Origin: Dubosiella newyorkensis
GTDB lineage: Bacteria; Bacillota_I; Bacilli_A; Erysipelotrichales; Erysipelotrichaceae
Direction: 5' to 3'
DNA: 14,502 bases
NCBI RefSeq assembly: GCF_001945605.1
Contig: NZ_MPKA01000142.1
Location: 1 to 14,502 of the forward strand
Of this stretch, positions 2,262 through 14,502 are shown piece after piece. The translations under genes and the position numbers were made by a program. The first letter of the stretch is position 1. Each line of letters opens with the position of its first letter. A model generated the notes under the pieces. It was given only the letters and a program-made list of their open reading frames with translations. It searched no databases and had not been told where the DNA came from.

Positions 2262-2274
2262 ATCCATCGAAAAA

Positions 2275-2470: not shown

Positions 2471-2490
2471 TATATAAAGGAGAACTATAT

Positions 2491-3801
2491 ATGCACTTTC
2501 AAATTCCAAGAGGAACCCAAGATATTCTGCCTGCCGAATCCAATAAATGGCAGGCACTCGAGCAAACTTTACGTCATTTCTGTTCGTTGTATGATTTCAA
2601 GGAGATCCGTACTCCGATCTTTGAACATACCAATGTATTCAAACGCGAAAACGATTCCAGCGACATGGTCAATAAAGAAATGTACACGTTCCAGCTTGAA
2701 AACTCGAACACATCGTTGACATTGCGTCCAGAAGGGACAGCTGGTGTCGTACGCAGTTTTGTCGAACATAAAATGTACGCGAATCCCGATCTTCCAGTCA
2801 AAATGTATTATATGGGAGAAATGGCGCGTCATGAACGGCCGCAAAAGGGACGCCTTCGTCTCTTTCATCAATTTGGTGTCGAATCGTTAGGAACCAAAAG
2901 TCCTTTGGCGGATGTCGAAGTGATCACACTCGCTTTTTCGATCTTGAAGGCGCTTGGTTTAGAGGAAATCAAAGTGCTGATCAACACGTTAGGAGACGAC
3001 GAGAGCCGTGCCGCTTACCGGAATGCTTTACGAGACTATTTCGCCCCATACCTCGATTCGCTTTGCGCGGATTGTAAACGCCGATACGAACAAAATCCGC
3101 TTCGTATCCTAGACTGCAAGATCGACCATGATCTTGACTGTGTCAAGAACGCTCCCAAGATGAGCGATTATTTAAATGAAAACTCAAAGGATTATTTTAA
3201 AACTGTACTGCAGACGCTCGATCGTCTCGGTATTCCTTATCAAGTAGAAGATACGCTTGTTCGTGGCTTGGATTATTATACACACACTGTGTTCGAGATC
3301 GTTTCGATCAACGAGGAGATGGGTTCCCAATCGACTGTCCTTGCAGGAGGACGTTATGATGGCTTGATCTCTTATTTTGGCGGTCCTAAAGAAATGAGCG
3401 GGATTGGCTGGGCGCTAGGCATGGAGCGTTTGATCATCGCTCTCGAGGCGGAAGGCATCAACTTGAATGAAGAAGATGCGTTAGACTGCTTCGTGATGGT
3501 GCTTGATCAAGAGGCGAGAGAATATGCCTTTGAAGTGCTGACAGAAATCAGGGCGTACGGCTATCGGGCCGATATGGATTATCAATCTCGTTCATTCAAG
3601 GCGCAATTCAAAGCGGCGGACCGCAAAAAAGCAAAAACAGCGATCATGATCGGCTCGTCGGAAATGGAATCGGGAAGCGTGACGGTCAAGCTATTGGATC
3701 GAAAAGAACAAACAACATTGCCTGCGGACGAACTCGTTTCGTATTTAGATGTTCATCTTGAAGAGGAAGAAGAACATCACCATCATCATGAGGAGGAATG
3801 A
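2491..3801 (+). CDS. hisS: Histidine--tRNA ligase, with an unusual C-terminal EEEEEHHHHHEEE tail
   Basis: 436 aa. Class II HisRS motifs are present (RHERPQKGRLRLFHQFGVE; AGGRYDGLI; GIGWALGMERL). SD AAGGAGA is at 2477-2483. A T-box lies upstream. Confidence 0.95.
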   Translation: MHFQIPRGTQDILPAESNKWQALEQTLRHFCSLYDFKEIRTPIFEHTNVFKRENDSSDMVNKEMYTFQLENSNTSLTLRPEGTAGVVRSFVEHKMYANPDLPVKMYYMGEMARHERPQKGRLRLFHQFGVESLGTKSPLADVEVITLAFSILKALGLEEIKVLINTLGDDESRAAYRNALRDYFAPYLDSLCADCKRRYEQNPLRILDCKIDHDLDCVKNAPKMSDYLNENSKDYFKTVLQTLDRLGIPYQVEDTLVRGLDYYTHTVFEIVSINEEMGSQSTVLAGGRYDGLISYFGGPKEMSGIGWALGMERLIIALEAEGINLNEEDALDCFVMVLDQEAREYAFEVLTEIRAYGYRADMDYQSRSFKAQFKAADRKKAKTAIMIGSSEMESGSVTVKLLDRKEQTTLPADELVSYLDVHLEEEEEHHHHHEEE

Positions 3802-3803
3802 TC

Positions 3804-5531
3804 ATGTATAGAACTCATTATAATGGAGAGCTAAGAGCGAATAACGAAAAAGAAAAAGTCAAACTTGTCGGCTGGGTTTCTAAAAAAAGAAACTTTGGCC
3901 AATTGTGCTTCATCGATTTGCGGGATACGACAGGGATCACGCAGCTCGTCTTTGACGAGGCGATCGCTCCAAAAGTCAAAGATGTCCGCAATGAATATAT
4001 TCTTCAAGTTTCTGGAACAGTCGAGAAGCGGAAAGATATCAATCCAACGCTTCCAACAGGAGAGATCGAAGTCATTGTCGATGATGTCAAGATTATCAAT
4101 ACCGCCAAGACGACGCCGCTCATCATCGCAGATGAAACGGATGCGTTAGAGGATACGCGTATGGAATACCGCTATCTTGACTTGAGAAGACCAATCATGC
4201 AGTCTCGTCTGAAAACAAGAGCAAAGATCAGCCGCTCGATGCGGGATTACCTCGACCATCATGGCTTCTTGGAGGTCGAGACACCTATGCTTGGAAAATC
4301 GACGCCAGAAGGCGCCAGAGACTATCTCGTGCCAAGTCGGGTTCATCCAGGTTCCTTTTACGCTTTGCCACAATCTCCTCAGCTCTACAAGCAATTGCTC
4401 ATGATCGCGGGTCTAGATAAATACTATCAATTCGCGCGCTGCTTTAGAGATGAAGATCTTAGAGCAGATCGTCAAACCGATTTTACGCAAGTCGATATCG
4501 AAACTTCGTTTTTAAGCGAACAAGAGATCATGGATTTCACAGAAGAAATGCTTTGCAAAGTGATGAAAGAAGTCAAAGGGATCGAAGTAAAACGTCCATT
4601 TTTAAAAATTACTTGGGAAGATGCGATGAATCGATATGGTTCGGATAAACCAGACAATCGGTTTGGGATGGAGTTTGTGGATCTAGGCCCAATGTTTGCC
4701 AAGAGCGAATTTCCAGTATTCCAAAATGTGGAAACGCTCAAAGGCTTTGTGGCGCCCGCTTTTCACGCATCCAATAAAGAAGTCAAAAAGCTTACAGAAT
4801 TTGTCAAGAAAAATGGTGGAAAAGGACTTGTCGTTTTCAAAATGCAAGAGGGAACTCTTTCTGGACCTGCGCGCAAATTTTTAAGCGACGAGGATGAAAA
4901 GGCGCTCATCGAAACGATGGGAGCGAACGATGGCGATACGATCTTTATTGTCGCAGACACATGGAGAAAAGCATGTACGGCTCTTGGAGCGCTTCGCAAC
5001 GAGATCGCAAGTCAAAAAGGTTTGAAAAAACCGAATGAATTCTCTTTTTTGTGGATCGTCGATTTTCCAATGTTCGAATGGAGCGAAGAGGAAGGCCGCT
5101 ACGTATCTGAACATCATCCATTCACGATGCCAAAAACAGAAGATCTGCCATTACTCGATACAGACCCTTCCAAAGTAAAGACAAACGCGTACGATATTAT
5201 TTTGAACGGATATGAGCTTGGGGGCGGAAGCATGCGGATCTATGACAATGCCCTTCAAAAAAAGATATTCCAGATCTTAGGGTTGAGCGATGAAGACATT
5301 CAAAACAAGTTTGGCTTTTTTGTCGATGCGTTCCAATATGGAACACCTCCGCATGGGGGTCTCGCGTTAGGGTTTGATCGTGTGGCGATGCTTTTGGCCG
5401 AAACGGATTCGATTCGCGATGTGATCGCGTTCCCGAAAAACGCGAGCGCGAAAGATCCGATGTCGAAAGCGCCATGTCCTGTCGATGAAAAGCAGCTCGA
5501 TGAACTGCATATCCAAATCGAGCATGACTAG
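3804..5531 (+). CDS. aspS: Aspartate--tRNA ligase (bacterial type with insertion domain)
   Basis: Motifs include FYALPQSPQLYKQLLM, FRDEDLRADRQ.DFTQVD, GGGSMRI and PPHGGLALGFDR. I prefer the ATG at 3804 because AGGAGG (3791-3796) lies 7 nt upstream. The track's ATG at 3798 abuts the SD and overlaps the hisS stop (ATGA). Confidence 0.93.
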   Translation: MYRTHYNGELRANNEKEKVKLVGWVSKKRNFGQLCFIDLRDTTGITQLVFDEAIAPKVKDVRNEYILQVSGTVEKRKDINPTLPTGEIEVIVDDVKIINTAKTTPLIIADETDALEDTRMEYRYLDLRRPIMQSRLKTRAKISRSMRDYLDHHGFLEVETPMLGKSTPEGARDYLVPSRVHPGSFYALPQSPQLYKQLLMIAGLDKYYQFARCFRDEDLRADRQTDFTQVDIETSFLSEQEIMDFTEEMLCKVMKEVKGIEVKRPFLKITWEDAMNRYGSDKPDNRFGMEFVDLGPMFAKSEFPVFQNVETLKGFVAPAFHASNKEVKKLTEFVKKNGGKGLVVFKMQEGTLSGPARKFLSDEDEKALIETMGANDGDTIFIVADTWRKACTALGALRNEIASQKGLKKPNEFSFLWIVDFPMFEWSEEEGRYVSEHHPFTMPKTEDLPLLDTDPSKVKTNAYDIILNGYELGGGSMRIYDNALQKKIFQILGLSDEDIQNKFGFFVDAFQYGTPPHGGLALGFDRVAMLLAETDSIRDVIAFPKNASAKDPMSKAPCPVDEKQLDELHIQIEHD

Positions 5532-6519
5532 ATCGATCAAGATCTTTGGCACGTTCGGACCGACGCTCCATACAAGAGAGCAGATCATCGACATGATCGA
5601 ATTAGGCATGAATGGGATCCGCTTGAATTGTTCGCATGTTTCGCTTGTGGATGCGAAAGAATGGATCGATGCATTGCATGAAGCGATGGAAATCACAAAG
5701 AAGCATGTCGAGCTCGTTGTTGATTTGAAAGGGCCTGAGATCAGAGTCCTCCATTTGAAGGAAAAGATCCGGATCCTTCCAGGCGAGATGATCAAGATCG
5801 AAGAAACATTTGACTTACCTGCGCTTGTTAAAGAAAAGATCGACTATCAAGATCAGCTCCAAGTCGATGACGGAAAACTTTTATTTGAAGTCAAGAAAAA
5901 AGATGAAGAGGGAATATTGCTGGAGACGATTCGGGGCGGGACACTGTATCCACATAAGAGCGTCGCAATCGAGGGCAAAGAAATCGTGCTTCCACCTTTA
6001 TGCCAAGACGATATTGAAACGATCAAGCACATTTCGGAATTTGGGGTGGAAGGCGTTTTGATGCCATTTGTAAGAAGCGAGCGAGATCTGATCGATCTCA
6101 AAGAGACGCTGGATCGTTTTCAATGCCCCGTCAAGATCTATGGCAAGATCGAATCGAGACAAGGGGTCGAAAACATCCGCTCGCTTCTTCCTTATATGGA
6201 TGAGGTCGTGATCGCACGTGGCGATCTAGGAAACGCGGTCGGATTATGCAGTCTACCAATCGCTCAGCATGAGATCGAGACGATTTGCCACAAGACCAAT
6301 AAGCCGTATATGATCGTAACGCAACTTCTTGAAATGGTGAGCCTGAAAGGCATTCCTTCTAGAGCAGAGGTCGATGACATTTTTTATGCGATCTATCAAG
6401 GGGCGAGTTCGATCATGCTGACTGGCGAGGTGGCGAATTCAAAGTATGCCAAAGAAGCAATGCGTATATTATGCGAAGTCAGCGAAAATACATTACAATA
6501 TAAATATAAGGAGACATAA
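5524..6519 (+). CDS. Pyruvate kinase family protein with A (barrel) and B domains only; the C-terminal regulatory domain is absent
   Basis: 331 aa from the ATG at 5524, which overlaps the aspS stop (ATGACTAG). PK motifs present: IFGTFGP, MNGIRLNCSH, DLKGPEIR, YGKIES, VIARGDLG, TQLLE, PSRAEVDD and MLTGEVA. Typical PKs are ~470-585 aa. Confidence 0.75.
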   Translation: MTRSIKIFGTFGPTLHTREQIIDMIELGMNGIRLNCSHVSLVDAKEWIDALHEAMEITKKHVELVVDLKGPEIRVLHLKEKIRILPGEMIKIEETFDLPALVKEKIDYQDQLQVDDGKLLFEVKKKDEEGILLETIRGGTLYPHKSVAIEGKEIVLPPLCQDDIETIKHISEFGVEGVLMPFVRSERDLIDLKETLDRFQCPVKIYGKIESRQGVENIRSLLPYMDEVVIARGDLGNAVGLCSLPIAQHEIETICHKTNKPYMIVTQLLEMVSLKGIPSRAEVDDIFYAIYQGASSIMLTGEVANSKYAKEAMRILCEVSENTLQYKYKET

Positions 6520-6521
6520 GT

Positions 6522-7454
6522 ATGAAAACAGCACTCGTGATCATGGCTGCGGGTCTTGGTTCTCGATATGGGGGCGGGATCAAGCAGCTAGAAGGTGTTG
6601 GTCCTAATGGCGAGATCATCATGGATTATTCGATTCATGACGCGATCGAGGCCGGCTTTGATAAAGTGGTCTTTATTATTCGTAAAGATATCGAAGACGC
6701 TTTTATGGAAGTGATCGGGGACCGGATCGAAAAAATATGCAAAGACAATGGGATTGAAGTAGAATACGCATATCAATCTCTTGATGACCTGCCTGAAGGT
6801 GTCGAATATCATGGCGAACGGACAAAGCCTTGGGGAACAGGACAAGCCGTATTGGCTTGTCGGGATCTGATCAAGGAACCATTCGTGGTTATCAATGCCG
6901 ATGACTATTATGGTAAAGAAGCATTCGTGCAGATCCATGACTTTTTAGAACAGTATTCGCCTGAAAGAGCGAATGATTACAGCTTGGCTGGTTTCTTGTT
7001 GAAGAACACGCTCTCGGATTTTGGCGGCGTGACGCGCGGAGTTTGCACGGTCGATCAAAACGATCAGCTTATAGATATTCAAGAGACGAAAAATATTATC
7101 AAGACAAAGGATGGCGCCCAAGTGGATGGAAAGAGTATAGATGGGAACACGTATGTTTCGATGAATATGTGGGGGCTCACACCCGAATCGATCGATCTTT
7201 TGAAGCAAGGGTTCATTGAATTTTTCGACCAAAACAAAGAGCAGATCGATACGGCTGAATTTTTGTTGCCGACATTCATTGGCGAACAATTAAAAAAAGG
7301 AACCGTAAGCGTGAAAGTCCTTCCTACCCACGATCAATGGTTTGGAGTGACGTATAAAGAAGATAAGCCCAATGTCGTGGCTTCCTTTCAAAAACTCATT
7401 GATGAAGGCGTCTATCAAAGCGATCTATTTTCCGATTTAAAAAAAGCGGAGTGA
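6522..7454 (+). CDS. Nucleotidyltransferase (sugar-phosphate nucleotidyltransferase fold, GT-A/NTP_transferase family)
   Basis: 310 aa. The N-terminal motif is LVIMAAGLGSRYGG (GxG[ST]R). SD AAGGAGA is at 6509-6515. The gene starts 2 nt after the preceding stop. Confidence 0.75.
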   Translation: MKTALVIMAAGLGSRYGGGIKQLEGVGPNGEIIMDYSIHDAIEAGFDKVVFIIRKDIEDAFMEVIGDRIEKICKDNGIEVEYAYQSLDDLPEGVEYHGERTKPWGTGQAVLACRDLIKEPFVVINADDYYGKEAFVQIHDFLEQYSPERANDYSLAGFLLKNTLSDFGGVTRGVCTVDQNDQLIDIQETKNIIKTKDGAQVDGKSIDGNTYVSMNMWGLTPESIDLLKQGFIEFFDQNKEQIDTAEFLLPTFIGEQLKKGTVSVKVLPTHDQWFGVTYKEDKPNVVASFQKLIDEGVYQSDLFSDLKKAE

Positions 7455-7495
7455 TCCGACGGTTTTAAAAATCTGATCATCTATATTCATTAACC

Positions 7496-7537
7496 AAAAG
7501 CCTTTCCTAAATCATTATCTTTAGGAAAGGCTTTTTT
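7496..7537. terminator. Strong rho-independent terminator ending the hisS-aspS-PK-NT operon; A-tract/T-tract symmetric, so possibly bidirectional
   Basis: AAAAGCCTTTCCTAAA (7496-7511) pairs with TTTAGGAAAGGCTTTT (7520-7535) across an 8-nt loop, followed by a T-run. Confidence 0.85.
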
Positions 7538-7987
7538 AGATAGTTTCAATCTATTAACAATAGAAGCCGATATCGCCTTTTTTTTCTTGGCAAAAACGCG
7601 TATTTCTTGTTCGAATACATGCCGAAAATAAGAATCATCACGTGTGATAGGCCAGACTTCCTTAGTTCATAGTTCAATGAGACAATCTTCTCCCACTTGT
7701 TTTTTTATATTTCAATTAAAAATATTTAAATATGGTTACAGAATGTCTCTGGGATCCGCTTTCATATCCAGCCATAAAGAAAGATTTTCGTGATAACACT
7801 ACCGTTGAATTAACGACTTTGACAATAACTCAGCAGATCGAATATTACCTAAAATAGGATCAAAGGATTATTTACTTCACTTTTCGAGATGTTTAGAAAG
7901 CCGTATGTTTTATTGAATATCGATCATTCTTCATAGCAAAATATAATTGAAGCTTCATTGGAAATAAACATATATAGACTAGTATTT

Positions 7988-9244
7988 CTAGACTGAATCG
8001 CTTAAAGTTTGATTTTGAACAAGGTCGGTTAGCTCTTTTTGGTAGTGAAGAGCCCATTCGAGATTTTCGCTTTTTTCAGAGAGTTCGATTAAACATTCCA
8101 AGATCCATGATCGCAAAGGATCCATATCAAATGCTTTGATGCTTTCTTTGAAATTTTCAATAGCTAAATAATAGTTGCTCTGATACCAAGCTACAATTCC
8201 GTCGATCAATAAACTCCAAGGAATCAGTTCGTCAAAAGAATTTACCATTTTTTTATTATCCAGGAGAAAGTCTTTGGCTTTATAAACAAAACTATAAAAG
8301 CAAGAATCATTCAATCGAAAAGCCGAAAAAATGATAATCAAATATAGAAACGGTTTTTCAGATGTCGTCTGAAGAGCTTGTTGTGCGTATATAAGGGCAT
8401 TTAGCGAGTCTTTTTTTCGAAAATGTCCATAAGCGAGCAAGGAAAGACAACTTTCGTATAAATCCGAGTCAAGAACAGATTTTTCTAAAAGAATACGATT
8501 TAAACATTGTAAAGATGATTGATAATCGCCTAAGTCAATCCGTATTTGTGCTTCCAAAAGAGAAAGCTGAATAAAACGAAAATACGATCCATATTGAAAT
8601 ACGAGAGATTTACATCGATTTAAGTATTGTAAAGCTTCTGTAAGCTTTTGTCTAAAATACGTATTCATAGAAAGATGTAAATTAATCATGAAAGAATTTG
8701 GATCGTAGAAATAAGCTTGGAGGAGATAGCTTGTTTCAGAATCGATATCGTTCGCATGAATTCCAAGTAAATGATAATAAATCGCAAGTTCTTTTGAAGA
8801 GTAGAATTCGATTCCAGACTCAATTAAACTTCGCAATTCCTCAATCTTTTTTTCATCTTCTTCATCGCATACTAATTTGTATAATTCTATTAATAAATAT
8901 TGCGGAAACAAAAAAGACGCAATCAAAAATCGATCAGAGAGGATTTGATCAATCAATTCTTTTCTCTTCTCATTTTGCAATGAACAATGTAGAAAATCAA
9001 TTTCATTTATTTGAGCGAGAAGCTTTTCTTTTTCTTGCATGTTGTTTTTGAAGGAAGGGAAGTCGAAAAGATGAGCAAACTGATTACGACCTTCCTCATC
9101 CAGATTGCTGATGCCCTTTTCAATAGAACGAATCATTGAATAAGAGTAATGTGTTTGATGGGCTAAAGCATCCAATGTCCAGCTATATTTCTTTCTCATC
9201 GTATTCACGAAAAAGCCGAAAATCCGTGATTCTGTTTGATTCAT
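7988..9244 (-). CDS. RNPP-type (NprR/PlcR/Rgg-like) transcriptional regulator: N-terminal XRE-family HTH plus a long TPR-like helical repeat domain
   Basis: 418 aa from the ATG at 9244, with SD AAAGGAA 6 nt upstream. The track start at 9259 is a TTG lying inside that SD. The HTH is FGFFVNTMRKKYSWTLDALAHQTHYSYSMIRSIEKGISN. The remainder is helical-repeat-like, with recurring Y/L/A-rich ~34-aa units. It is divergent from the rSAM operon. Confidence 0.7.
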   Translation of the reverse strand: MNQTESRIFGFFVNTMRKKYSWTLDALAHQTHYSYSMIRSIEKGISNLDEEGRNQFAHLFDFPSFKNNMQEKEKLLAQINEIDFLHCSLQNEKRKELIDQILSDRFLIASFLFPQYLLIELYKLVCDEEDEKKIEELRSLIESGIEFYSSKELAIYYHLLGIHANDIDSETSYLLQAYFYDPNSFMINLHLSMNTYFRQKLTEALQYLNRCKSLVFQYGSYFRFIQLSLLEAQIRIDLGDYQSSLQCLNRILLEKSVLDSDLYESCLSLLAYGHFRKKDSLNALIYAQQALQTTSEKPFLYLIIIFSAFRLNDSCFYSFVYKAKDFLLDNKKMVNSFDELIPWSLLIDGIVAWYQSNYYLAIENFKESIKAFDMDPLRSWILECLIELSEKSENLEWALHYQKELTDLVQNQTLSDSV

Positions 9245-9261
9245 AGTATTTCCTTTCAAAA

Positions 9262-9396
9262 TAGCAGATATTATTGGATTAAAAATCCAGAAAAACTATA
9301 ATATTATTTTGTTCAATTAAGATAAAAATCAGTTATATAGGATTTGTTTATAAAGCTTTGGCTTAAGAACAATAAAATGATGTAAAATATCTGCTA
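9262..9396. repeat. Pair of 11-nt inverted repeats in the regulator/rSAM intergenic region (candidate operator half-sites)
   Basis: TAGCAGATATT (9262-9272) and its exact reverse complement AATATCTGCTA (9386-9396). Confidence 0.4.
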
Positions 9397-9512
9397 CTTA
9401 ATTTGTTGCGTTGATAGTTATTTAATTCTATCATAAAGGTGTCAAGAATAGAATAGATGATATTGAATAAACAGGTTGTTAGACAATTAATCTATTAAAG
9501 AGAGGTAAGAAA

Positions 9513-10757
9513 ATGCAGTTTGAACCAAAAGAAGATGAAGTGTATTTTTGTGAGGACGAAGGATACGGTATAGTCTATTCACATGAGAAAAAATCGCTTT
9601 ATAAAATCTCTTCAGAACAAGCTAAAAAGTTAAAAGAAATCAAAAAAAGACAATCAATAATTAAAAGTGATTCAAGAGAAATTGTAAATTTTGATAATTC
9701 AAATTTAAAGAAAATAGAATTAATTATGAGCACAGCGTGTAATTTGAAATGTGATTATTGTTTTGCAAATGGTGGAAATTATAATTTAAAAATTAGAAAT
9801 ATAAAAATTGATGTTTTAGATAAAACTATAGAATTAATTGAAAAATCAAAAAATGTAAATGAAATTGTTTTTTTTGGTGGAGAACCAACCCTTGCAGAAA
9901 AAGAAATAGAATATTTATGTGAAAATTTAAGAAGAAAAGGTCTATTTCCTAAATATAAGATAGTGACAAATTTATATCAATTGAGCAATCAATTGATTGA
10001 TATCATTTATAAGTATAATATAATTATAACTATTAGTTTAGATGGACCAGAATGGATAAATAATAAAAGAAGAAAAGCTCGTGATGGGGGGAATGTATAT
10101 CAGAGAGTTGTAAATAATGTTGAGAGATTAAATAACAAGGGTATAAATATAAAAGCAATTGAAGCTACTTATATGACTACTCATAAAGAAGCTGGATTCA
10201 GTAAAGAAGAATTGAAGGATTTTTTTAAAGACAATTTTAAAATAGATGATATTTATATTGTTGATGAACTTAATGAAAAAGAAAATGAAGTGGAATCAGA
10301 AATTGGAAACCTATTTCAAAAAAATAATTTAGAAAGTTGTGATCTTTTGTTTTTATCTAGTTATTTCCAAGAAAATAAGAAATTATATGGAATTTGTAAC
10401 AGTGGAATTTCAAGCATTTGTATTGATCCTCAAGGATATATTTATCCATGCCATTTATATATTAATAAGAATTATTCTTTAGGAAATATTTTAAATGGAA
10501 AAATAAAAAGCTTTAAAGAAATAAATTGGATTAGAGAAAAACTTGGTTGTTATAATTGTTCAGCAAGATATTCATGCAATATTTGTTTAGCCCATTGTTT
10601 AATCTCTAATACTTCTTTAGAAGATAAATGCATGAAAGTTAAAAAAGAGAATTCAAAACTAGTTTATAAAATGTTTCGTTATTTAGATACACACAATTTA
10701 CAAAATTTAAACAAAGGAGAAAATAATGGAAGAGATCAAATTAGAAGTTTTGAATGA
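9513..10757 (+). CDS. Radical SAM / SPASM-domain peptide maturase
   Basis: 414 aa. CNLKCDYC (C76/C80/C83, nt 9738-9761) is the CX3CX2C motif. A GGEP motif (FFGGEPTL) is present. The C-terminal Cys-rich region has CNSGISSICIDPQGYIYPC (GX4C) followed by CYNCSARYSCNICLAHC...C. The N-terminal ~60 aa look like an RRE/PqqD-type leader-binding module. SD GAGAGG lies 7 nt upstream. Confidence 0.85.
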   Translation: MQFEPKEDEVYFCEDEGYGIVYSHEKKSLYKISSEQAKKLKEIKKRQSIIKSDSREIVNFDNSNLKKIELIMSTACNLKCDYCFANGGNYNLKIRNIKIDVLDKTIELIEKSKNVNEIVFFGGEPTLAEKEIEYLCENLRRKGLFPKYKIVTNLYQLSNQLIDIIYKYNIIITISLDGPEWINNKRRKARDGGNVYQRVVNNVERLNNKGINIKAIEATYMTTHKEAGFSKEELKDFFKDNFKIDDIYIVDELNEKENEVESEIGNLFQKNNLESCDLLFLSSYFQENKKLYGICNSGISSICIDPQGYIYPCHLYINKNYSLGNILNGKIKSFKEINWIREKLGCYNCSARYSCNICLAHCLISNTSLEDKCMKVKKENSKLVYKMFRYLDTHNLQNLNKGENNGRDQIRSFE

Positions 10758-10860
10758 AATAAAATTAGATGAAAAAGAATTAGAAGAATTGAAAGAGTTC
10801 CAACTCAATCTAGCTAATGGAGGAGCAGGAGGAGGAATTGTTTGCTATTGTAAAACATGA
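10726..10860 (+). CDS. Putative RiPP precursor peptide (44 aa), absent from the supplied ORF track
   Basis: The ATG at 10726 is preceded by AAGGAGA (10714-10720, 5-nt spacing). Translation: MEEIKLEVLNEIKLDEKELEELKEFQLNLANGGAGGGIVCYCKT*. The stop TGA is at 10858-10860. It overlaps the last 32 nt of the rSAM gene in another frame. It has an acidic amphipathic leader, a Gly-rich hinge and a short Cys-containing C-terminal core. Confidence 0.7.
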   Translation: MEEIKLEVLNEIKLDEKELEELKEFQLNLANGGAGGGIVCYCKT

Positions 10861-11204
10861 TTCTAATTTCATTTAAGGAATTTTGATAAGTTTTATTTTT
10901 TAAGAATATACATAGGCTCATGTTGAAAATATATTAGAAGTTTTAATCTACAGAAAAACATAATTAATATCAAATAATATATTTAATATATGAATTCTAC
11001 TTTACGTGTTTTAAATTGAAATAGTAAGTTATATTTTGTAAATTGTTGTATAAAAAAGGAGCTGTAGATTATTTCCATTTACAAAGCATATATTTTAAAT
11101 ATTATAATACATTAAATTGTATATTTATATAGCTTCTAGAAGAAATTAATACAACTCCTTTAAATATATATATAAAATTTTAAATAAATAAAATAAATGG
11201 AAAA

Positions 11205-11561
11205 ATGTTTAAACTAAATTTACTAAACAAGCAATGGGAAATTGCTTATCTAGGATGTATTAAAAAAGGAAGTATAATCATTTTGGGGGGACCTTTTACT
11301 AATTATTCTAATGATTTTGTAATTATTCCTCCTAATATACTTATGAAATTATTAGTGTTTTGCGTAAAAAATGATTTGAGTCCAATAATAATTCATAACC
11401 ATACAAATAACAGCTCTTTTTCTATTCCTGATAGAAATTTTTTGAAATCTATTGAAGAAATATATTATAGAAATGGAGGAAGTAAATTCATTTATTTGGG
11501 GTTAATAAATTCAAAGACAGGAGATTCAAAAGTTATTTGTAATAAAAGTAGGAGAAAATAA
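11205..11561 (+). CDS. Small (118 aa) protein with a JAB/MPN (JAMM)-like metallopeptidase motif pattern; function unproven
   Basis: E12 sits in WEIAYLG. A beta-strand-like segment SPIIIH64NH66TNNSSFS73IPD76 (nt 11394-11432) gives HxH-x6-S-x2-D, against the canonical JAMM HxH-x7-S-x2-D. The stop overlaps the ABC start (TAATG at 11559-11563). Its own SD is weak. Confidence 0.45.
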   Translation: MFKLNLLNKQWEIAYLGCIKKGSIIILGGPFTNYSNDFVIIPPNILMKLLVFCVKNDLSPIIIHNHTNNSSFSIPDRNFLKSIEEIYYRNGGSKFIYLGLINSKTGDSKVICNKSRRK

Positions 11562-13171
11562 TGAAAAAATACTTTATAAATAATAAAAATATTTGTATAA
11601 AATATTTATTCCTGATGATCATGAATGGCTTGATTCCAGTTTTTAGCGCTCAATGGATTACATGGGTTACAGGATATGCTTTAGGAGAAAATGATGAGTT
11701 AGTGAACTTAGCCCTTTCTTTAGCATTTATGAGTGGATATACAATAATTGTTTATTTATCATACGATAGAATTAAACGAAAATATAAAGAATCTATGATG
11801 ATAGAAATAGAGCAAGAAATGATGGATGCTGTTGTCTTGCAACCACAACAATCTTTCCATCGGTACGATTCGAGTTTCTATACATCATTTTTTCTTAATG
11901 ACCTTAAAATGTTGGAAGATTCATATTTCTCTCAAGTCCCAACTTTAATTTCAGGAATTGTACAGATTATTTTTACAAGTGTTTATGTAGTGGTATCGGT
12001 AAATGGCTGGATATTGCTTTATTTTATTTTATCTAGTTTTATTCTTTTATGGATACCAAAATATATGAGTCAAAAGATTCAAGAAAAAGCTCAATTCGCT
12101 ACTAAACAGGCTGGTGAATTGACTGCCTTTTTAAAAGAAACGTTTCAAGGATTTGATACTTTAGCAGGAAATAATGTTCAAGAACTTTATACAGAACACT
12201 CATTAGATCACTTTTTACACTATGAACTGGCAAAACAGAAAGTAAACTGGCTTACTATGATTTCTAGTTCTCTTTCCAATGGATGTGGACTGTTTTTTCA
12301 GTTCGTTTTGCTGTTTATATTAGCAATTTGCGTAACGGAAGGAAAAATAAAGGCAGAATATCTGATTTCGATCACCTCAATCTCAGGGACATTTATGAAT
12401 GGTGTTTTTACAATAACAGAAGCATTTTCCAATTTGCAAACTTCTAGACCAATCATTAAAAAAGTGCAAGAATTTCAAAACAATCCACGTATTTCATCAG
12501 AAAAAAAACGATCTTCTGTTAAATATATAGTTTTAAAAAACGTTGATTATTCGATAAACAATAAAGTGTTAATTGACAATTGTTCGTATGTTTTCGAGAA
12601 AGGAAAGAAATATTTGATAATTGGAAAAAGCGGAAGTGGGAAATCGACATTATTTAATTTACTTAATGGACGTATAAGTTGTAATAAAGGAAAAATAGAG
12701 TTTAGGAAACTAAATCATGATTCTTGTTCGTTTCCCCTCTACGAAGAAATCACTACAATTTCACAAAAACCTGTCTCTTTTCAAGGAACCGTAAAAACGA
12801 ACATTCAAATGAATAGATTCTTAGATGATAAAAAAATCAAGAAGCTTTTAGAAAAAGTCAATCTTCCATTATCGGTTTTAGATCAGCCGATCACAGAAGA
12901 TAACACTTCTGTTTCAGGAGGAGAATTACAACGAATTTCGATCGCTAGAGCTCTAGCAGATCCACGTTCATTTTTATTATGTGATGAAATTACTGCTAAT
13001 ATTGATCCCAATAGTGCGAGTATAGTTGAACATGCTGTGACTTCTGTTAAAGAAACAGGAATTTTATATATAGCTCATCATTATACGAAAGAAACGATAA
13101 AGAGATTTGATGTAATATTAGAACTAAAAAATGGAAAGCTAATAGATGTTACTTCACAATTCAATAACTAA
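11561..13171 (+). CDS. ABC exporter half-transporter (6-TM domain plus NBD) with no N-terminal C39 peptidase domain
   Basis: 536 aa. Walker A is GKSGSGKST (aa 355-363), Q-loop ISQKP, signature VSGGELQRISIARAL, Walker B FLLCDE, H-loop YIAHH. The hydrophobic N-terminal ~300 aa begin at residue ~13. SD AGGAG is at 11550-11554. Confidence 0.85.
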   Translation: MKKYFINNKNICIKYLFLMIMNGLIPVFSAQWITWVTGYALGENDELVNLALSLAFMSGYTIIVYLSYDRIKRKYKESMMIEIEQEMMDAVVLQPQQSFHRYDSSFYTSFFLNDLKMLEDSYFSQVPTLISGIVQIIFTSVYVVVSVNGWILLYFILSSFILLWIPKYMSQKIQEKAQFATKQAGELTAFLKETFQGFDTLAGNNVQELYTEHSLDHFLHYELAKQKVNWLTMISSSLSNGCGLFFQFVLLFILAICVTEGKIKAEYLISITSISGTFMNGVFTITEAFSNLQTSRPIIKKVQEFQNNPRISSEKKRSSVKYIVLKNVDYSINNKVLIDNCSYVFEKGKKYLIIGKSGSGKSTLFNLLNGRISCNKGKIEFRKLNHDSCSFPLYEEITTISQKPVSFQGTVKTNIQMNRFLDDKKIKKLLEKVNLPLSVLDQPITEDNTSVSGGELQRISIARALADPRSFLLCDEITANIDPNSASIVEHAVTSVKETGILYIAHHYTKETIKRFDVILELKNGKLIDVTSQFNN

Positions 13172-13595
13172 TATTTTAGATTCAGAAAAAATATTATTAT
13201 GTATCTGATTAACTCTAACAAGAAGTGTTTAGCATGATCTCTTTGAAAAAATTGGATGTAGTTCCATAAGAACGAAATAAATAGCTCGTAGAACACGTTA
13301 AGAGAATCAGAGACAATAGCTCAACGAATGAAACGTGTTATTCGAAAATAAAATAAATGAAAGTTTACTATCCTAGCAGAGTTCAAGAATATTTGGAAAT
13401 CATATCAAGAAGCATCTGGGGAAATGACCAATTTATATAAGAGAATTAAGAAACAACGATTATGAGCTTACCTAGACGCTTGTTAGAATTATAATATAAA
13501 AATTATTTCATATTTTATATCTCCTATTGAACAGATGTATTAGTTAAAAGCTAAAATCAATAGAAATCAAAATCTCAAAAATAGGTTTAAAAAGA

Positions 13596-14273
13596 TCATT
13601 CACTTCGCTTTTTAGCTGCGACAAGAGCGCAAAAATCCTCCCTAGGCTGATAACAAAGAACTTCTTCCTCGATCAGAGGCGCTTGGATCCATTTCTGGCC
13701 CCCATTTAGCGCTGTATCCGCGATGGCGATCATGATCTTAGTAGGGATCGAAAACGAAGAGAGTGGCTGGTTGAGAAGCTCTTGTTGCGTATATTCCGTT
13801 CTTTCTAAGAACGCGTCATTGATATAGTGGATAACCCCATTCATTCCGCTTCCGTTTCCATCGTATTCCATACCGATCAATAAAAAGGGAAGAGGGCAAT
13901 GATCGAATATGGAACACTGATAATCGATCGAGAGCGCTTGCCGGTTTTTTGACTTATTATATTTCTTTTCTTGCTCATATTTGACCGTTCTAGGTAGTCG
14001 AGCTCTTCCTTTGAAGACCATTCCGTCTTCCATCGTATAAAGGTCGTCTTTTACGCTGTAGATCTTTGAAGTCGAGAGCGCGATCCCTTTATTGACATTC
14101 AAGAATTCTTGGACGGGAAGTTCGTCCAAGATCGCCTTTAAAGGCGTAAATGTATCGATGATCCGTCCATCGATCAAGAAGATATTCGTCTTTCCGTTTT
14201 CGCGTTTGATGTATTTGATCTCCGGGATCTCGATATGGTGCTTGTTGAAAAATTTAATGAGTTTTGTATCCAT
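13596..14273 (-). CDS. LytTR DNA-binding domain protein with a C-terminal PAS-like domain and no receiver domain
   Basis: The LytTR-like segment is IPEIKYIKRENGKTNIFLIDGRIIDTFTPLKAILDELPVQEFLNVNKGIALSTSKIYSV..YTMEDGMVFKGR. The PAS-like segment is LPFLLIGMEYDGNGSGMNGVIHYINDAFLERTEYTQQELLNQPL. The start is ambiguous. I prefer the ATG at 14273 (225 aa) because a near-consensus promoter sits inside the longer 14348 reading. Confidence 0.6.
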   Translation of the reverse strand: MDTKLIKFFNKHHIEIPEIKYIKRENGKTNIFLIDGRIIDTFTPLKAILDELPVQEFLNVNKGIALSTSKIYSVKDDLYTMEDGMVFKGRARLPRTVKYEQEKKYNKSKNRQALSIDYQCSIFDHCPLPFLLIGMEYDGNGSGMNGVIHYINDAFLERTEYTQQELLNQPLSSFSIPTKIMIAIADTALNGGQKWIQAPLIEEEVLCYQPREDFCALVAAKKRSE

Positions 14274-14279
14274 ATCCGA

Positions 14280-14308
14280 ATTATAACAAACTTCAAATCT
14301 CCTTTCAA
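14280..14308 (-). promoter_or_regulatory. Near-consensus sigma-A promoter positioned for a leaderless transcript of the LytTR/PAS gene
   Basis: The minus strand reads TTGAAA (14308-14303), a 17-nt spacer ending in TGT, TATAAT (14285-14280), 6 nt, then ATG (14273). Confidence 0.4.
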
Positions 14309-14432
14309 AACTTGTTCGAAACAATGAATTACGGTGTATAAGTTGCATTCGAGGAATAGTTTTTGTATTATAGATCCCATCTTTTACAGTTTTAACAGTG
14401 CGAAAGGCGCCTATCTCCTTTATTTAAAGGGT

Positions 14433-14502
14433 TTAGACGCCTTTTCTTTCTTTTATGAATTTCGCCACATTTTTCCCGTTGGCATTTTTGACGATTTTGT
14501 TC
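14433..14502 (-). CDS. 3' end of an unidentified minus-strand gene running off the window
   Basis: The minus-strand frame reads ...NKIVKNANGKNVAKFIKERKGV* with the stop at 14435-14433. Only 22 codons are visible, so no product call is possible. Confidence 0.3.
   Translation of the reverse strand, partial: NKIVKNANGKNVAKFIKERKGV

What the first reader, a model, noticed from the sequence alone, without database searches (positions are those of the whole stretch)
7540..13595. AT-rich island encoding a self-contained, regulator-linked radical-SAM peptide system
Directly after a strong operon terminator the base composition collapses: a sampled line at 9661-9720 has 10/60 G+C, against 34/60 at 1021-1080. 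It recovers at 13596.

The island holds five mutually consistent parts:
- a divergent HTH+TPR RNPP-like regulator;
- an rSAM/SPASM enzyme;
- an overlapping 44-aa precursor ORF;
- a 118-aa JAB-like ORF;
- a coupled ABC exporter.

This layout parallels the quorum-sensing-controlled RaS-RiPP loci of streptococci, such as the streptide str operon under shp/rgg control. It differs in several ways. The maturase precedes the precursor. The regulator is NprR-sized. A putative non-C39 peptidase is present. The predicted core is very short. No mobility gene is visible, so how the island was acquired is unclear.
Basis: partly seen in the sequence, partly recalled or inferred. Interest (0 to 1): 0.85.

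Follow-up and report, generated by a model that had tools for sequence, protein, structure and literature searches.

The report
Strain-variable radical-SAM peptide island with JAB-like peptidase
A 6.1-kb AT-rich insertion found in a minority of strains of the mouse-gut bacterium Dubosiella newyorkensis encodes a small peptide-making kit (modifying enzyme, conserved 44-residue precursor, exporter, regulator) from a rare uncharacterised family, and its predicted leader-cutting enzyme is of a ubiquitin-protease type for which my searches found no such role reported.

Summary
Island-free Dubosiella newyorkensis strains have the nucleotidyltransferase and LytTR genes abutting stop-to-stop (TGATCA). 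The window carries 6137 extra bases (7457-13593; 28% G+C against 45%) bounded by a 4-bp GATC repeat, with no mobility gene.

The island encodes five parts:
- a divergent HTH+TPR regulator;
- a radical-SAM/SPASM enzyme;
- a 44-aa precursor;
- a 118-aa protein;
- a translationally coupled ABC exporter without a C39 peptidase domain.

The order rSAM, precursor, ~120-aa protein, ABC recurs in seven distinct loci with rSAM identity down to 31%. All precursors end ...LA(R/N)GG-A-x-G-x-h-h-C-x-C-x-x-stop.

The 118-aa protein has invariant E...HxH...SxxD. Its AlphaFold model (pLDDT 84) matches JAB/MPN+ peptidases (BubCD, PfJAMM1, AMSH/Sst2).

Best reading: this is a new radical-SAM RiPP family, closest to but below threshold for PapB and streptosactin GggB/GggC. 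It probably makes a roughly 11-residue thioether-bridged peptide. I propose, but have not tested, that the JAB-like enzyme removes the ubiquitin-tail-like Gly-Gly leader.

Quorum-sensing control is unproven: no pheromone ORF was found, and RRNPP membership is inconclusive.

Verdict: a new variant of a known kind, moderately high interest.

The parts
7457..13593 (.). Inserted island (6137 bp, 28.2% G+C), absent from most D. newyorkensis strains
   Evidence: blastn against island-free strain L096: window 127-7456 and 13594-14375 align at 99.6% to contiguous DNA. 100% identical in nine island-bearing assemblies.
7453..7456 (.). Left copy of the 4-bp GATC that is present once at the empty site
   Evidence: Junction sequences. 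Target duplication and microhomology cannot be distinguished.
13590..13593 (.). Right copy of GATC at the island junction
7496..7541 (.). Hairpin with an A-tract before it and a T-tract after it, so it looks able to terminate both strands; it lies inside the island
   Evidence: 16-nt perfectly complementary arms 7496-7511 / 7520-7535 with an 8-nt loop (I22); sequence.
7988..9244 (-). HTH (Xre-type) + TPR regulator, 418 aa from the ATG (423 aa from the upstream TTG at 9259)
   Evidence: Weak Pfam HTH_19/HTH_3 and TPR_2/TPR_12 hits. Two homologues score just above Pfam's whole-protein cut-offs (P0196 TPR_2 29.0 against 27; P0197 HTH_3 23.2 against 23). All-helical AF2 model, pLDDT 69. TPR, Rap and PlcR hits.
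9262..9271 (.). TAGCAGATAT, one arm of an operator-like inverted repeat in the divergent promoter region
   Evidence: Reverse complement of 9387-9396. Both arms are conserved in L011, and the distal arm also in L188 (sequence).
9387..9396 (.). ATATCTGCTA, second arm of the operator-like inverted repeat, about 115 nt upstream of the rSAM start
9513..10757 (+). Radical-SAM/SPASM peptide maturase, 414 aa
   Evidence: Pfam Radical_SAM 2.6e-17, Fer4_12 and weak SPASM. C76-x3-C80-x2-C83 plus seven invariant SPASM cysteines. Best NCBIfam hits PapB 128 bits, nif11, GggB, SCIFF. Best PDB hit CteB 5wgg.
10726..10860 (+). Precursor peptide MEEIKLEVLNEIKLDEKELEELKEFQLNLANGG|AGGGIVCYCKT (RBS AAAGGAG at 10713-10719); it overlaps the rSAM 3' end by 32 nt
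   Evidence: Conserved in seven loci (alignment A6). 16 synonymous against 4 non-synonymous changes versus L011. Sequence.
10693..10706 (+). ACAATTTACAAAAT, upstream arm of an inverted repeat that brackets the precursor gene
   Evidence: Exact reverse-complement copy at 11033-11046. The same pair is found in L011.
11033..11046 (-). Downstream arm of the inverted repeat bracketing the precursor gene
11205..11561 (+). 118-aa JAB/MPN+-like protein, putative leader peptidase
   Evidence: Invariant E12, H64, H66, S73, D76. AF2 pLDDT 84, pTM 0.77. Foldseek PDB: BubCD 6e-6, PfJAMM1, Sst2/AMSH, BRCC36, RadC, Rpn11. Only four real homologues among 1.8 billion representatives.
11561..13171 (+). ABC exporter (6-TM domain plus ATPase, 536 aa) with no peptidase domain; its start overlaps the JAB-like stop codon by 1 nt
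   Evidence: Pfam ABC_membrane and ABC_tran, no Peptidase_C39. Best NCBIfam hit is the streptosactin exporter GggC, 147 bits, full length.

Best explanation
The island is a horizontally acquired, self-contained radical-SAM RiPP (RaS-RiPP) gene cluster carried by one lineage of Dubosiella newyorkensis.

Proposed mechanism:
1. The HTH+TPR regulator controls the divergent promoter. This is inferred. A conserved inverted repeat, TAGCAGATAT/ATATCTGCTA, is a candidate operator.
2. The 44-aa precursor is made in excess of the enzyme. It has its own strong RBS and is bracketed by a conserved inverted repeat.
3. Its acidic helical leader docks on the rSAM/SPASM enzyme. The enzyme uses the two invariant C-terminal cysteines (C40, C42) to install thioether (sactionine or ranthionine) bridges. 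The chemistry is inferred from the closest families.
4. The 118-aa JAB/MPN+-like metallopeptidase cuts the leader after the ubiquitin-tail-like ...L-A-(R/N)-G-G. It thereby stands in for the C39 cysteine-peptidase domain that this ABC transporter lacks. This is my hypothesis, based on fold, catalytic motif, gene coupling and the known Gly-Gly specificity of JAMM enzymes.
5. The translationally coupled ABC transporter exports the roughly 11-residue product (AGGGIVCYCKT, modified).

The biological role is unknown. By analogy it is a narrow-spectrum antagonistic or self-directed peptide.

Shown here: the insertion polymorphism, the domain content, the conservation of the four-gene order and of the precursor, and the JAB fold.
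Inferred: the chemistry, the cleavage site, the regulation and the bioactivity.
For: Empty site and exact junctions.

rSAM: CX3CX2C plus seven invariant SPASM cysteines. Every top family hit is a peptide maturase. The best PDB hit is CteB.

Precursor: conserved directly downstream of the rSAM in seven loci with rSAM identity from 66% down to 31%. It has invariant L14, E18, Q26, L29, G33, G36, C40 and C42, and always ends C-x-C-x-x-stop. It shows 16 synonymous against 4 non-synonymous changes between the window and L011.

JAB-like protein: invariant E...HxH...SxxD, a confident model and JAB/MPN+ top hits. Among the 184 sequences held when the test was run (183 loci plus the window), it occurs only next to this rSAM clade; none of the 80 loci with more distant rSAM relatives has it. 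It sits immediately before the ABC gene, overlapping it or within 3 nt in five of the seven loci (window, L012/13, L184, L185) and within 20-116 nt in L011, L014 and L102.

ABC exporter: no C39 domain, and the best hit is the streptosactin exporter GggC over its full length.
Against: - No family model reaches its curated cut-off: PapB 128 against 340, GggB 92 against 650, GggC 147 against 750. The chemistry therefore cannot be transferred with confidence.
- Cyclophane-forming maturases also score (YhhB 70, AmcB 67), and most precursors have an aromatic residue or His between the two Cys.
- The JAB-like protein has no Pfam, NCBIfam or PDB sequence match.
- The spacing between HxH and S is 6 or 8 residues in every member, never the canonical 7.
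- The model's metal-site geometry could not be inspected.
- JAMM enzymes have not, as far as my literature searches reach, been linked to RiPP leader removal. This step has no precedent.
- No immunity gene is evident.
- No expression data are available.
- One assembly (L003) carries indels in the regulator and the ABC gene. A relative (L188) holds a truncated copy. The cassette evidently decays readily.
Confidence: 0.72

Rival explanations
1. The cluster is primarily a cell-cell signalling circuit. The modified peptide, or the leader fragment released by cleavage, is the ligand of the TPR regulator. The system would autoinduce, like RRNPP pheromone systems, and the peptide would not be an antibiotic.
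For: - The regulator has the HTH+TPR architecture of cytoplasmic peptide receptors. Rap and PlcR are among its structural matches.
- No separate pheromone ORF exists in this island. The only peptide encoded next to the receptor is the RiPP precursor.
- Regulator homologues stay paired with the ABC gene even where the rSAM is truncated or lost (L188, L189).
Against: - Generic TPR proteins match as well as Rap or PlcR, with TM-scores of 0.46 or less on a model with pLDDT 69.
- More distant cassette members (L185, L102) use an unrelated regulator. They also carry a separate small ORF with a signal-peptide-like start. The RiPP is therefore not generally its own signal.
- No oligopeptide importer is linked.
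Confidence: 0.15
2. The 118-aa protein is not a protease. It could instead be a catalytically inactive MPN-type scaffold that presents the precursor to the rSAM in place of an RRE domain, or that gates the ABC transporter. It could also be an immunity factor. Leader removal would then be done by a housekeeping protease, as is assumed for several streptococcal RaS-RiPPs.
For: - The HxH-to-S spacing is non-canonical, 6 or 8 residues.
- There are no sequence-profile hits to the JAB, Prok-JAB or RadC families.
- The rSAM has only about 65 residues before its SAM-cluster motif. That is short for a full RRE, so a separate peptide-binding partner is conceivable.
- MPN- scaffolds such as EMC8/9 and Rpn8 also appear among the fold hits.
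Against: - The metal-binding and catalytic residues of the JAMM motif (E, H, H, S, D) are invariant in every member whose full-length sequence was recovered, at 25-65% overall identity. One partial member (P0193, at a contig edge) lacks the N-terminal region that holds the Glu. Such conservation is hard to explain for an inactive scaffold.
- The protein is small and soluble, with no membrane segment that would suit an immunity protein.
- The precursors carry a conserved Gly-Gly, and the exporter lacks the usual Gly-Gly peptidase domain.
Confidence: 0.2
3. The polymorphism is a deletion, not an insertion. The cassette would be ancestral in D. newyorkensis and would have been lost from most strains by GATC-microhomology deletion.
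For: - A 4-bp repeat at both junctions is what microhomology-mediated deletion leaves.
- There is no integrase, no terminal inverted repeat and no plasmid or phage match.
- An uncultured Dubosiella sp. (L012) and Firmicutes bacterium M10-2 (L188), another mouse-gut Firmicute, carry related or decayed cassettes.
Against: - The island is 17 percentage points lower in G+C than its flanks.
- It is 100% identical in all nine island-bearing assemblies, whereas the flanks differ by 0.4% from island-free strains. This points to one recent lineage.
- The empty-site LytTR allele is listed in 909 blocks of the collection (24 contigs were read), against 14 contigs read for the rSAM; these are different units and only roughly comparable.
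- The related cassette in L012 sits in a different genomic context.
- Either direction leaves the cassette foreign in composition.
Confidence: 0.2
4. The rSAM acts on a non-peptide or protein substrate, for example as an anaerobic sulfatase maturase or in cofactor synthesis, and the small ORF is incidental.
For: anSME scores 73 bits in NCBIfam and 1e-12 against the PDB. Viperin-like models also score.
Against: - There is no sulfatase or cofactor gene nearby.
- Peptide maturases all score higher.
- The small ORF is conserved in sequence, position and C-terminal register in seven loci, and is under purifying selection.
- It is linked to a bacteriocin-type exporter.
Confidence: 0.02

Closest known systems
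Streptosactin (ggg) cluster of Streptococcus thermophilus: GggA precursor, GggB rSAM sactisynthase, GggC ABC exporter, under shp/rgg control
   Same: - A Gly-rich precursor with two Cys near the C-terminus.
- A single rSAM/SPASM maturase.
- An ABC exporter without a peptidase domain. GggC is the best NCBIfam hit for the window's ABC protein, aligned over its full length, and GggB is the third-best hit for the rSAM.
- A small product. Streptosactin is a 14-mer with two sactionine rings (PMC9389541, PMC8172795).
- A gut or commensal Firmicute host.
- A divergent peptide-receptor-type regulator.
   Different: - Scores are far below the family cut-offs: GggB 92 against 650, GggC 147 against 750.
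- The gene order is maturase before precursor.
- The regulator is a 418-aa HTH+TPR protein with no SHP gene, whereas the ggg cluster is under shp/rgg control (PMC13361665).
- The Cys register differs. Streptosactin donors sit three residues N-terminal of their acceptors (Cys25-Ser28, Cys31-Gly34; PMC8172795). Here only two residues follow the last Cys.
- An extra JAB-like gene is present here. None of the papers I read mentions a JAB-like gene in the ggg cluster, but I did not inspect a ggg locus.
PapB-family ranthipeptide maturases (freyrasin; NCBIfam NF047865)
   Same: - PapB is the best-scoring family for the rSAM (4.7e-37). The alignment covers residues 65-373 of the query and 2-327 of the 330-position model.
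- PapB joins a Cys thiol to the carbon next to a carboxylate, three residues downstream. In engineered substrates this can be the C-terminal carboxylate (PMC9413430, PMC12373016).
- Here Cys40 lies exactly X3 before the invariantly placed C-terminus.
   Different: - The score is 128 bits against a cut-off of 340.
- There is no conserved Asp or Glu acceptor and no repeated CX3D motif.
- The precursor is 44 aa with one CxC motif rather than six repeats.
- No crosslink chemistry has been shown for this family.
JAMM/MPN+ metalloproteases that cut after a C-terminal Gly-Gly (Rpn11, AMSH/Sst2, archaeal JAMM1, bacterial Bub/Bil-operon JAB peptidases, RadC-like JAB)
   Same: - The fold (Foldseek probability 1.0; BubCD E 6e-6, PfJAMM1 2.8e-3, Sst2 7e-3).
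- Invariant Glu about 52 residues before HxH, then S-x-x-D.
- The putative substrate carries an L-A-R/N-G-G segment resembling the LRGG tail of ubiquitin. The Gly-Gly specificity of JAMM enzymes is from my own knowledge of the family.
   Different: - It is minimal in size (118 aa).
- The loop between HxH and Ser is 6 or 8 residues, not 7.
- There is no profile-level sequence match to any JAB family.
- The context is a RiPP operon rather than a ubiquitin-like, sulfur-carrier or defence system.
- No E1/E2-like or beta-grasp gene is nearby.
Peptidase-containing ABC transporters (PCATs; C39 domain) that cleave double-glycine leaders during export
   Same: A Gly-Gly-containing leader, a dedicated exporter, and a peptidase gene functionally tied to the exporter through translational coupling.
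   Different: - The peptidase is a separate polypeptide with an unrelated metalloprotease fold.
- The ABC protein has no C39 domain.
- Cleavage after Gly-Gly is hypothesised here, not shown.
RRNPP quorum-sensing receptors (PlcR, NprR, Rap, AimR)
   Same: An N-terminal Xre-type HTH plus a C-terminal TPR array, about 420 aa (the size of NprR, from my own knowledge). It is transcribed divergently from its presumed target operon. Rap and PlcR are among the structural matches.
   Different: - There is no detectable sequence relationship to any solved RRNPP protein.
- No adjacent pro-pheromone ORF was found.
- The structural matches are no better than those to generic TPR proteins.

Membership tests
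Radical-SAM RiPP (RaS-RiPP) biosynthetic cluster, generic | rSAM enzyme with a CX3CX2C SAM-cluster motif | tested here: met
   C76-x3-C80-x2-C83, invariant in seven homologues. Pfam Radical_SAM 63.9 bits against a cut-off of 29.5.
Radical-SAM RiPP (RaS-RiPP) biosynthetic cluster, generic | SPASM auxiliary-cluster domain (seven-Cys motif) | tested here: met
   C295, G308-x4-C313, C346-x2-C349-x5-C355-x2-C358 and C373 are all invariant. Pfam SPASM itself is sub-threshold (17.2 against 21.5).
Radical-SAM RiPP (RaS-RiPP) biosynthetic cluster, generic | Small precursor gene conserved next to the maturase, with a variable leader and a conserved core motif | tested here: met
   Seven distinct loci. 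Invariant C40 and C42 and a conserved stop position. 16 synonymous against 4 non-synonymous changes.
Radical-SAM RiPP (RaS-RiPP) biosynthetic cluster, generic | Demonstrated post-translational modification of the peptide | not testable with these tools
   Needs co-expression and mass spectrometry.
Streptosactin / GGG subfamily | Maturase and exporter reach the NCBIfam equivalog cut-offs (GggB 650, GggC 750 bits) | tested here: not met
   92 and 147 bits.
Streptosactin / GGG subfamily | shp/rgg quorum-sensing pair adjacent to the cluster | tested here: not met
   The regulator is a 418-aa HTH+TPR protein with no hit to any curated regulator family in Pfam or NCBIfam. No short hydrophobic peptide ORF was found.
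Streptosactin / GGG subfamily | Two Cys donors, each three residues N-terminal of its acceptor | tested here: not met
   Only two residues follow C42. Streptosactin topology is from PMC8172795.
PapB-family ranthipeptide maturase (NF047865) | Score at or above the 340-bit cut-off | tested here: not met
   127.9 bits, although nearly the full length of the model is aligned.
PapB-family ranthipeptide maturase (NF047865) | Substrate with a Cys-X3-Asp/Glu motif | tested here: not met
   There is no conserved acidic acceptor. Cys40-X3-C-terminus is conserved instead.
SCIFF maturase (TIGR03974) | Score at or above 425 bits and a six-Cys-in-45 precursor | tested here: not met
   89.7 bits. The precursors have two or three Cys.
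JAMM/MPN+ metallopeptidase | Catalytic motif E...HxHx7Sx2D | tested here: inconclusive
   H64, H66, S73 and D76 are invariant in all members, and E12 is invariant in every member with a complete N-terminus (absent from the partial P0193). The HxH-to-S spacing is 6 or 8 residues, never 7.
JAMM/MPN+ metallopeptidase | MPN fold | tested here: met
   AF2 pLDDT 83.9, pTM 0.77. Foldseek PDB top hits are BubCD, PfJAMM1, Sst2, BRCC36, RadC and Rpn8-Rpn11.
JAMM/MPN+ metallopeptidase | Match to a curated JAB profile (Pfam JAB, Prok-JAB, RadC) | tested here: not met
   No Pfam or NCBIfam hit even at E 10 for any of five members. UniRef nevertheless labels it 'RadC-like JAB domain-containing'.
JAMM/MPN+ metallopeptidase | Zn2+-dependent peptidase activity | not testable with these tools
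   Needs biochemistry.
RRNPP peptide-sensing regulators | HTH DNA-binding domain fused to a TPR peptide-binding domain | tested here: met
RRNPP peptide-sensing regulators | Specific structural or sequence relationship to Rap, NprR, PlcR, PrgX or Rgg | tested here: inconclusive
   No PDB sequence hit. By Foldseek, Rap (TM 0.43-0.46) and PlcR appear, but consensus TPR, LGN and APC proteins rank as high. The model has pLDDT 69.
RRNPP peptide-sensing regulators | Cognate secreted pro-peptide gene adjacent to the receptor | tested here: not met
   No SD-preceded or conserved small ORF lies on either side of the regulator, in the window or in L011, L188 or L189.
Peptidase-containing ABC transporter (PCAT) | N-terminal C39 cysteine-peptidase domain | tested here: not met
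   The transmembrane domain starts at residue 19, and there is no Peptidase_C39 hit.
Genomic island | Presence/absence polymorphism at a defined site among conspecifics | tested here: met
Genomic island | Own mobility gene, or att/terminal repeats | tested here: not met
   There is no integrase or transposase ORF inside 7457-13593. There is only a 4-bp GATC repeat and no terminal inverted repeats.

The most novel reading that the evidence does not exclude
The 118-aa protein would be the first JAMM/MPN+-type RiPP leader peptidase. It would recognise the leader's ubiquitin-tail-like L-A-R/N-G-G and cut after Gly-Gly, working with a peptidase-less ABC exporter as a 'split', metalloprotease-based analogue of the C39 PCATs. 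This would tie ubiquitin-like C-terminal processing to ribosomal natural-product maturation.

A second, more speculative layer concerns the chemistry. The PapB-like rSAM might bridge Cys40 to the carbon next to the invariantly positioned C-terminal carboxylate (Cys-X3-COOH). So far this reaction has been seen only with engineered PapB substrates (PMC12373016).
Probability: 0.35. Interest if true: 0.8.

Novelty: new variant of a known kind. Interest (0 to 1): 0.62.

Why it matters
Dubosiella newyorkensis is a mouse-gut commensal. A strain-variable locus that makes a modified peptide could contribute to strain-level differences in competition or signalling.

For natural-product enzymology, the locus defines a rare RaS-RiPP family. 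I recovered only seven distinct loci from collections of billions of proteins. The family has a very short CxC core, which makes it cheap to synthesise and test.

If the JAB-like protein is the leader peptidase, it adds a new protease class to RiPP biosynthesis. It could also serve as a small, sequence-specific Gly-Gly endopeptidase tool. It would help explain how leaders are removed in RaS-RiPP clusters whose exporters lack a C39 domain.

The clean empty-site comparison also provides natural isogenic-like strain pairs for phenotype tests.

Tried and rejected
- Genome-contig scan with the flanking nucleotidyltransferase. It returned only relatives of 68% identity or less from many phyla. The empty site came instead from an exact look-up of the common LytTR allele.
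- Word-indexed homologue search with the 118-aa protein found only itself. The exhaustive HMMER search found four real relatives plus one repetitive false hit, P0191.
- Profile search of the JAB-like alignment against PDB sequences gave only a chance hit to chitobiose phosphorylase, E 0.6.
- A degenerate DNA pattern for the precursor core in metagenome contigs gave 0 hits. The scan with the rSAM alignment returned only relatives of 27% identity or less, none with a JAB-like gene.
- Plasmid and phage collections gave no DNA match to the island and no protein match to the JAB-like protein. PHROGs gave nothing for neighbours of distant members.
- PADLOC gave only generic rSAM (viperin) and ABC ATPase similarity, so this is not a known defence system.
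- Rfam found nothing in the island.
- Promoter and terminator scans were no better than shuffles.
- Searches for a pheromone ORF, including one for the GPGNx[IV]W motif seen in distant members, found nothing.
- Rejected reading: anaerobic sulfatase maturase or cofactor rSAM, because of the precursor conservation and context.
- Rejected reading: composite transposon mobilising the island. The flanking IS copies enclose housekeeping genes and sit well outside the island junctions.

Full report
**Source and observation**

The window comes from Dubosiella newyorkensis, an Erysipelotrichaceae species from the mouse gut. Every protein looked up carries that organism name in NCBI and UniRef.

The compositional collapse is real. 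G+C is 0.40-0.48 up to about 7250 and 0.21-0.35 between 7500 and 13250, with a minimum of 0.208 at 10751-11250. It returns to 0.40 from 13500.

**Exact boundaries from an empty site**

An exact look-up of the commonest LytTR allele returned six D. newyorkensis contigs (L096-L101). In these, the LytTR gene and the nucleotidyltransferase gene are convergent and directly abutting.

blastn of the window against one of them aligns window 127-7456 and 13594-14375 at 99.6% to contiguous DNA. The junctions read ...GCGGAGTGATC|ATTCAC... in the empty site. In the window they read ...GTGATC|CGACGG... and ...AAAAAGATC|ATTCAC....

The insert is therefore 7457-13593 (6137 bp, 28.2% G+C against 44.7% for the left flank). 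It lies exactly between the two stop codons (TGA/TCA) and is bounded by a 4-bp GATC present once in the empty site.

There are no terminal inverted repeats and no integrase or transposase inside. Island-free strains have no terminator between the convergent genes.

The island is 100% identical in nine island-bearing assemblies; a tenth (L003) carries small indels. The rSAM was found on 14 contigs. The empty-site LytTR allele is listed in 909 blocks of the collection, of which 24 contigs were read; these counts are in different units. Even so, the island looks like a minority, single-lineage accessory element.

Neither the island's DNA nor its JAB-like protein has a match in the plasmid or phage collections.

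**Gene content**

- Regulator, 7988-9244 (-). It has weak Xre-type HTH and TPR matches. It has only five relatives in 5.8 billion clusters. Two of these score just above Pfam's whole-protein cut-offs for HTH_3 or TPR_2.
- Maturase, 9513-10757. This is a radical-SAM/SPASM enzyme with CX3CX2C (C76, C80, C83) and seven invariant SPASM cysteines. Its best family matches are all peptide maturases: PapB 128 bits, nif11 94, GggB 92, SCIFF 90. None reaches its cut-off, and anaerobic sulfatase maturase ranks tenth. The best solved relative is the SCIFF maturase CteB.
- Precursor, 10726-10860. It has a consensus RBS (AAAGGAG, 6 nt spacer) and encodes MEEIKLEVLNEIKLDEKELEELKEFQLNLANGGAGGGIVCYCKT.
- 118-aa protein, 11205-11561, with no family match.
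- ABC exporter, 11561-13171. It overlaps the previous stop codon by one base and has no C39 domain. Its best family match, over the full length, is the streptosactin exporter GggC (147 bits, cut-off 750).

**Conservation of the cassette**

Context look-ups for rSAM homologues and for relatives of the 118-aa protein recovered six further distinct loci:
- L011 (66% rSAM identity);
- L012/13 (42%, uncultured Dubosiella sp.);
- L014/15, L184, L185 and L102/103 (31-34%).

All have the order rSAM, 41-45-aa ORF, 117-147-aa ORF, ABC.

The small ORFs align throughout. They share an acidic leader with invariant L14, E18, Q26 and L29, then L-A/G-R/N/S-G/A-G, then a short Gly/Ala-rich hydrophobic stretch. 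All end C-x-C-x-x-stop.

Between the window and L011 the precursor gene has 16 synonymous and 4 non-synonymous codon differences. The adjacent intergenic DNA is only 59% identical.

**The 118-aa protein**

An exhaustive HMMER search of 1.8 billion representatives found only four real relatives. All of them lie in these cassettes.

An HMM of the family, run over the 184 sequences held at that point (183 loci plus the window), hit only these cassettes. It hit none of the 80 loci that hold more distant rSAM relatives (27% identity or less).

The alignment shows invariant H64, H66, S73 and D76, and E12 is invariant in every member with a complete N-terminus (the partial P0193 lacks that region). 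This is the JAMM pattern E...HxH...SxxD, with the Glu 52 residues before HxH. The HxH-to-Ser loop is 6 or 8 residues rather than 7.

An AlphaFold2 model built on five sequences is confident (pLDDT 83.9, pTM 0.77). Foldseek against the PDB returns almost only MPN-fold proteins at the top:
- the JAB peptidase of the Citrobacter Bub operon (E 6e-6, TM 0.67);
- Pyrococcus JAMM1;
- Sst2/AMSH;
- BRCC36;
- RadC;
- Rpn8-Rpn11.

**Proposed mechanism**

Shown here: an accessory island, a peptide-type rSAM/SPASM enzyme, a conserved precursor with two invariant Cys, a JAB-fold protein with catalytic-type residues found only in this cassette, and an immediately adjacent, peptidase-less exporter.

Inferred:
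1. The rSAM installs thioether bridges from C40 and C42. The closest families are all thioether-forming, and the Cys are the only invariant core residues.
2. The JAB-like enzyme removes the leader. JAMM enzymes characteristically cut after a C-terminal Gly-Gly of ubiquitin-like tails (established knowledge of Rpn11, AMSH, archaeal JAMM1 and Bub/Bil JAB peptidases; not tested here). Four of the seven leaders read L-A-R-G-G, close to the L-R-G-G of ubiquitin. The exporter lacks the C39 domain that normally processes Gly-Gly leaders.
3. The ABC protein exports a roughly 11-residue product.

Four literature searches found no paper linking JAMM or JAB enzymes to RiPP or bacteriocin leader removal, and none linking Dubosiella newyorkensis with radical SAM enzymes. 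The library lacks most subscription journals, so this is absence of evidence only.

A further speculative point concerns the C-terminus. PapB, the best-scoring family, links Cys to the carbon next to a carboxylate three residues downstream. It can use a C-terminal carboxylate in engineered substrates (PMC12373016). Here Cys40 is invariably X3 from the C-terminus.

**Regulation**

The AF2 model of the regulator is all-helical, with an N-terminal HTH and helical repeats, but is only moderately confident (pLDDT 69). Foldseek returns consensus TPR, LGN and APC proteins alongside Rap (TM 0.43-0.46) and PlcR. There is no sequence match to any solved protein.

No ORF resembling a pheromone precursor lies on either side of the regulator, in the window or beside its homologues. 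The architecture therefore matches RRNPP receptors, but membership and quorum-sensing control are unproven.

Two more distant cassettes (L185, L102/103) use an unrelated regulator of about 420 aa. They also carry a small ORF between regulator and rSAM with a signal-peptide-like start and a shared GPGNx[IV]W motif. Peptide-receptor control may therefore be a recurring, but not homologous, feature of the family.

A 10-bp inverted repeat (TAGCAGATAT at 9262-9271, ATATCTGCTA at 9387-9396) is conserved between the window and L011, in otherwise diverged intergenic DNA. It is a candidate operator.

**Comparison with known systems**

The locus works like the streptococcal RaS-RiPP clusters, with streptosactin the closest. 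It shares a Gly-rich, two-Cys precursor, a single SPASM maturase, a GggC-like exporter and a peptide-receptor-type regulator.

It fails every membership test for the GGG, PapB and SCIFF families. It also differs in gene order, regulator type and Cys register, and it has the JAB-like gene.

I file it as a new variant of a known kind: a new RaS-RiPP family with an unprecedented candidate leader peptidase.

**Origin**

The cassette is AT-rich wherever it was found. In L012 it is 28-38% G+C against 43-50% for the flanks. L184, L185 and L102 are 23-29%.

In L184 and L186 it sits next to ParE/DUF6290 toxin-antitoxin genes, and in L186 also next to a MobA fragment. This hints at carriage on plasmids or other mobile elements elsewhere.

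Decayed copies exist. In Firmicutes bacterium M10-2 (L188) the regulator (48% identity) faces an rSAM truncated after residue 238 and joined to the ABC gene (52%). In L189 only the regulator and an ABC gene remain.

Whether the D. newyorkensis polymorphism arose by insertion or by GATC-microhomology deletion cannot be decided from these data. Composition, the rarity of the island and its zero diversity favour recent insertion.

**Verdict**

Confidence that this is a functional or recently functional RaS-RiPP cluster is about 0.7. Confidence that the JAB-like protein is its leader peptidase is about 0.35-0.5. Interest is 0.62.

Noticed in passing
window 1-126 and 14376-14502; L001 1-614 and 14864-16945: Both ends of the window diverge from island-free strains because they run into two identical, directly oriented copies of a 2082-bp IS (603-aa DDE_Tnp_1 transposase). 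The two copies bracket the whole 14.2-kb rpsU-to-LytTR segment in the island-bearing lineage. The right copy is flanked by an unusually long 132-bp direct duplication of target DNA (window 14244-14375 is repeated after the IS in L001).
   Followed up: partly
window 10693-10706 and 11033-11046; L011 2254-2267 and 2596-2609; L014 7165/7357; L184 3555/3764: A 14-nt inverted repeat (ACAATTTACAAAAT) brackets the precursor gene. It is conserved in L011 although the surrounding intergenic DNA is only 59% identical. L014 and L184 have a different 15-nt inverted repeat (CTTTATTCAAAACTA) in the same position. It may be a long-range RNA stem that stabilises or processes a precursor-only transcript, or a protein-binding site.
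   Followed up: partly
window 9262-9271 and 9387-9396: A perfect 10-bp inverted repeat (TAGCAGATAT / ATATCTGCTA), about 115 bp apart, lies in the divergent regulator/rSAM promoter region. Both arms are conserved in L011, and the distal arm partly in L188. It is a candidate operator for the HTH+TPR regulator.
   Followed up: partly
L185 4858-4986; L102 about 4400-4530 (same as L103 1-123): In two distant cassette members, a small ORF lies between an unrelated 420-aa regulator and the rSAM. It has a hydrophobic, signal-peptide-like N-terminus and a shared C-terminal GPGNx[IV]W motif (MKKLIYITYLSLLIIGYVCPSVENKISGGPGNPIWHVDMRSR; ...NKIVLIDGPGNEVWG). It is a candidate secreted pheromone precursor, and it is absent from the D. 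newyorkensis island.
   Followed up: partly
L096 8676-8681 (empty site); window 7451-7456 and 13590-13596: In island-free strains the convergent nucleotidyltransferase and LytTR genes share the palindrome TGATCA as back-to-back stop codons. There are no intergenic bases and no terminator. The island supplies the only terminator-like hairpin between them.
   Followed up: yes
L188 4250-8254 (Firmicutes bacterium M10-2); L189 5154-8242; L003: Decay series of the cassette. In M10-2 the rSAM is truncated after residue 238, and the precursor and JAB-like genes are deleted. Another lineage keeps only the regulator and an ABC gene. One D. newyorkensis assembly (L003) has indels that split the regulator and shorten the ABC gene. 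A 420-aa truncated ABC allele (P0128) is seen on 16 contigs.
   Followed up: partly
L184 6299-6787; L186 2234-3649: Distant members of the cassette sit next to ParE-toxin/DUF6290 pairs. In L186 there is also a MobA/MobL fragment. This suggests carriage on plasmids or other mobile elements in other hosts.
   Followed up: no
L012 3951-5570: The uncultured-Dubosiella version of the cassette has a second ABC half-transporter (539 aa) directly after the first. This suggests a heterodimeric exporter there, against a single gene in the window.
   Followed up: no
window 6522-7454: The flanking nucleotidyltransferase has its closest relatives outside the species (57-68% identity) scattered across Clostridia, Bacilli, Streptococcus and even contigs labelled Bacteroidaceae, Alistipes and Victivallis. 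This suggests the gene is itself widely exchanged.
   Followed up: no
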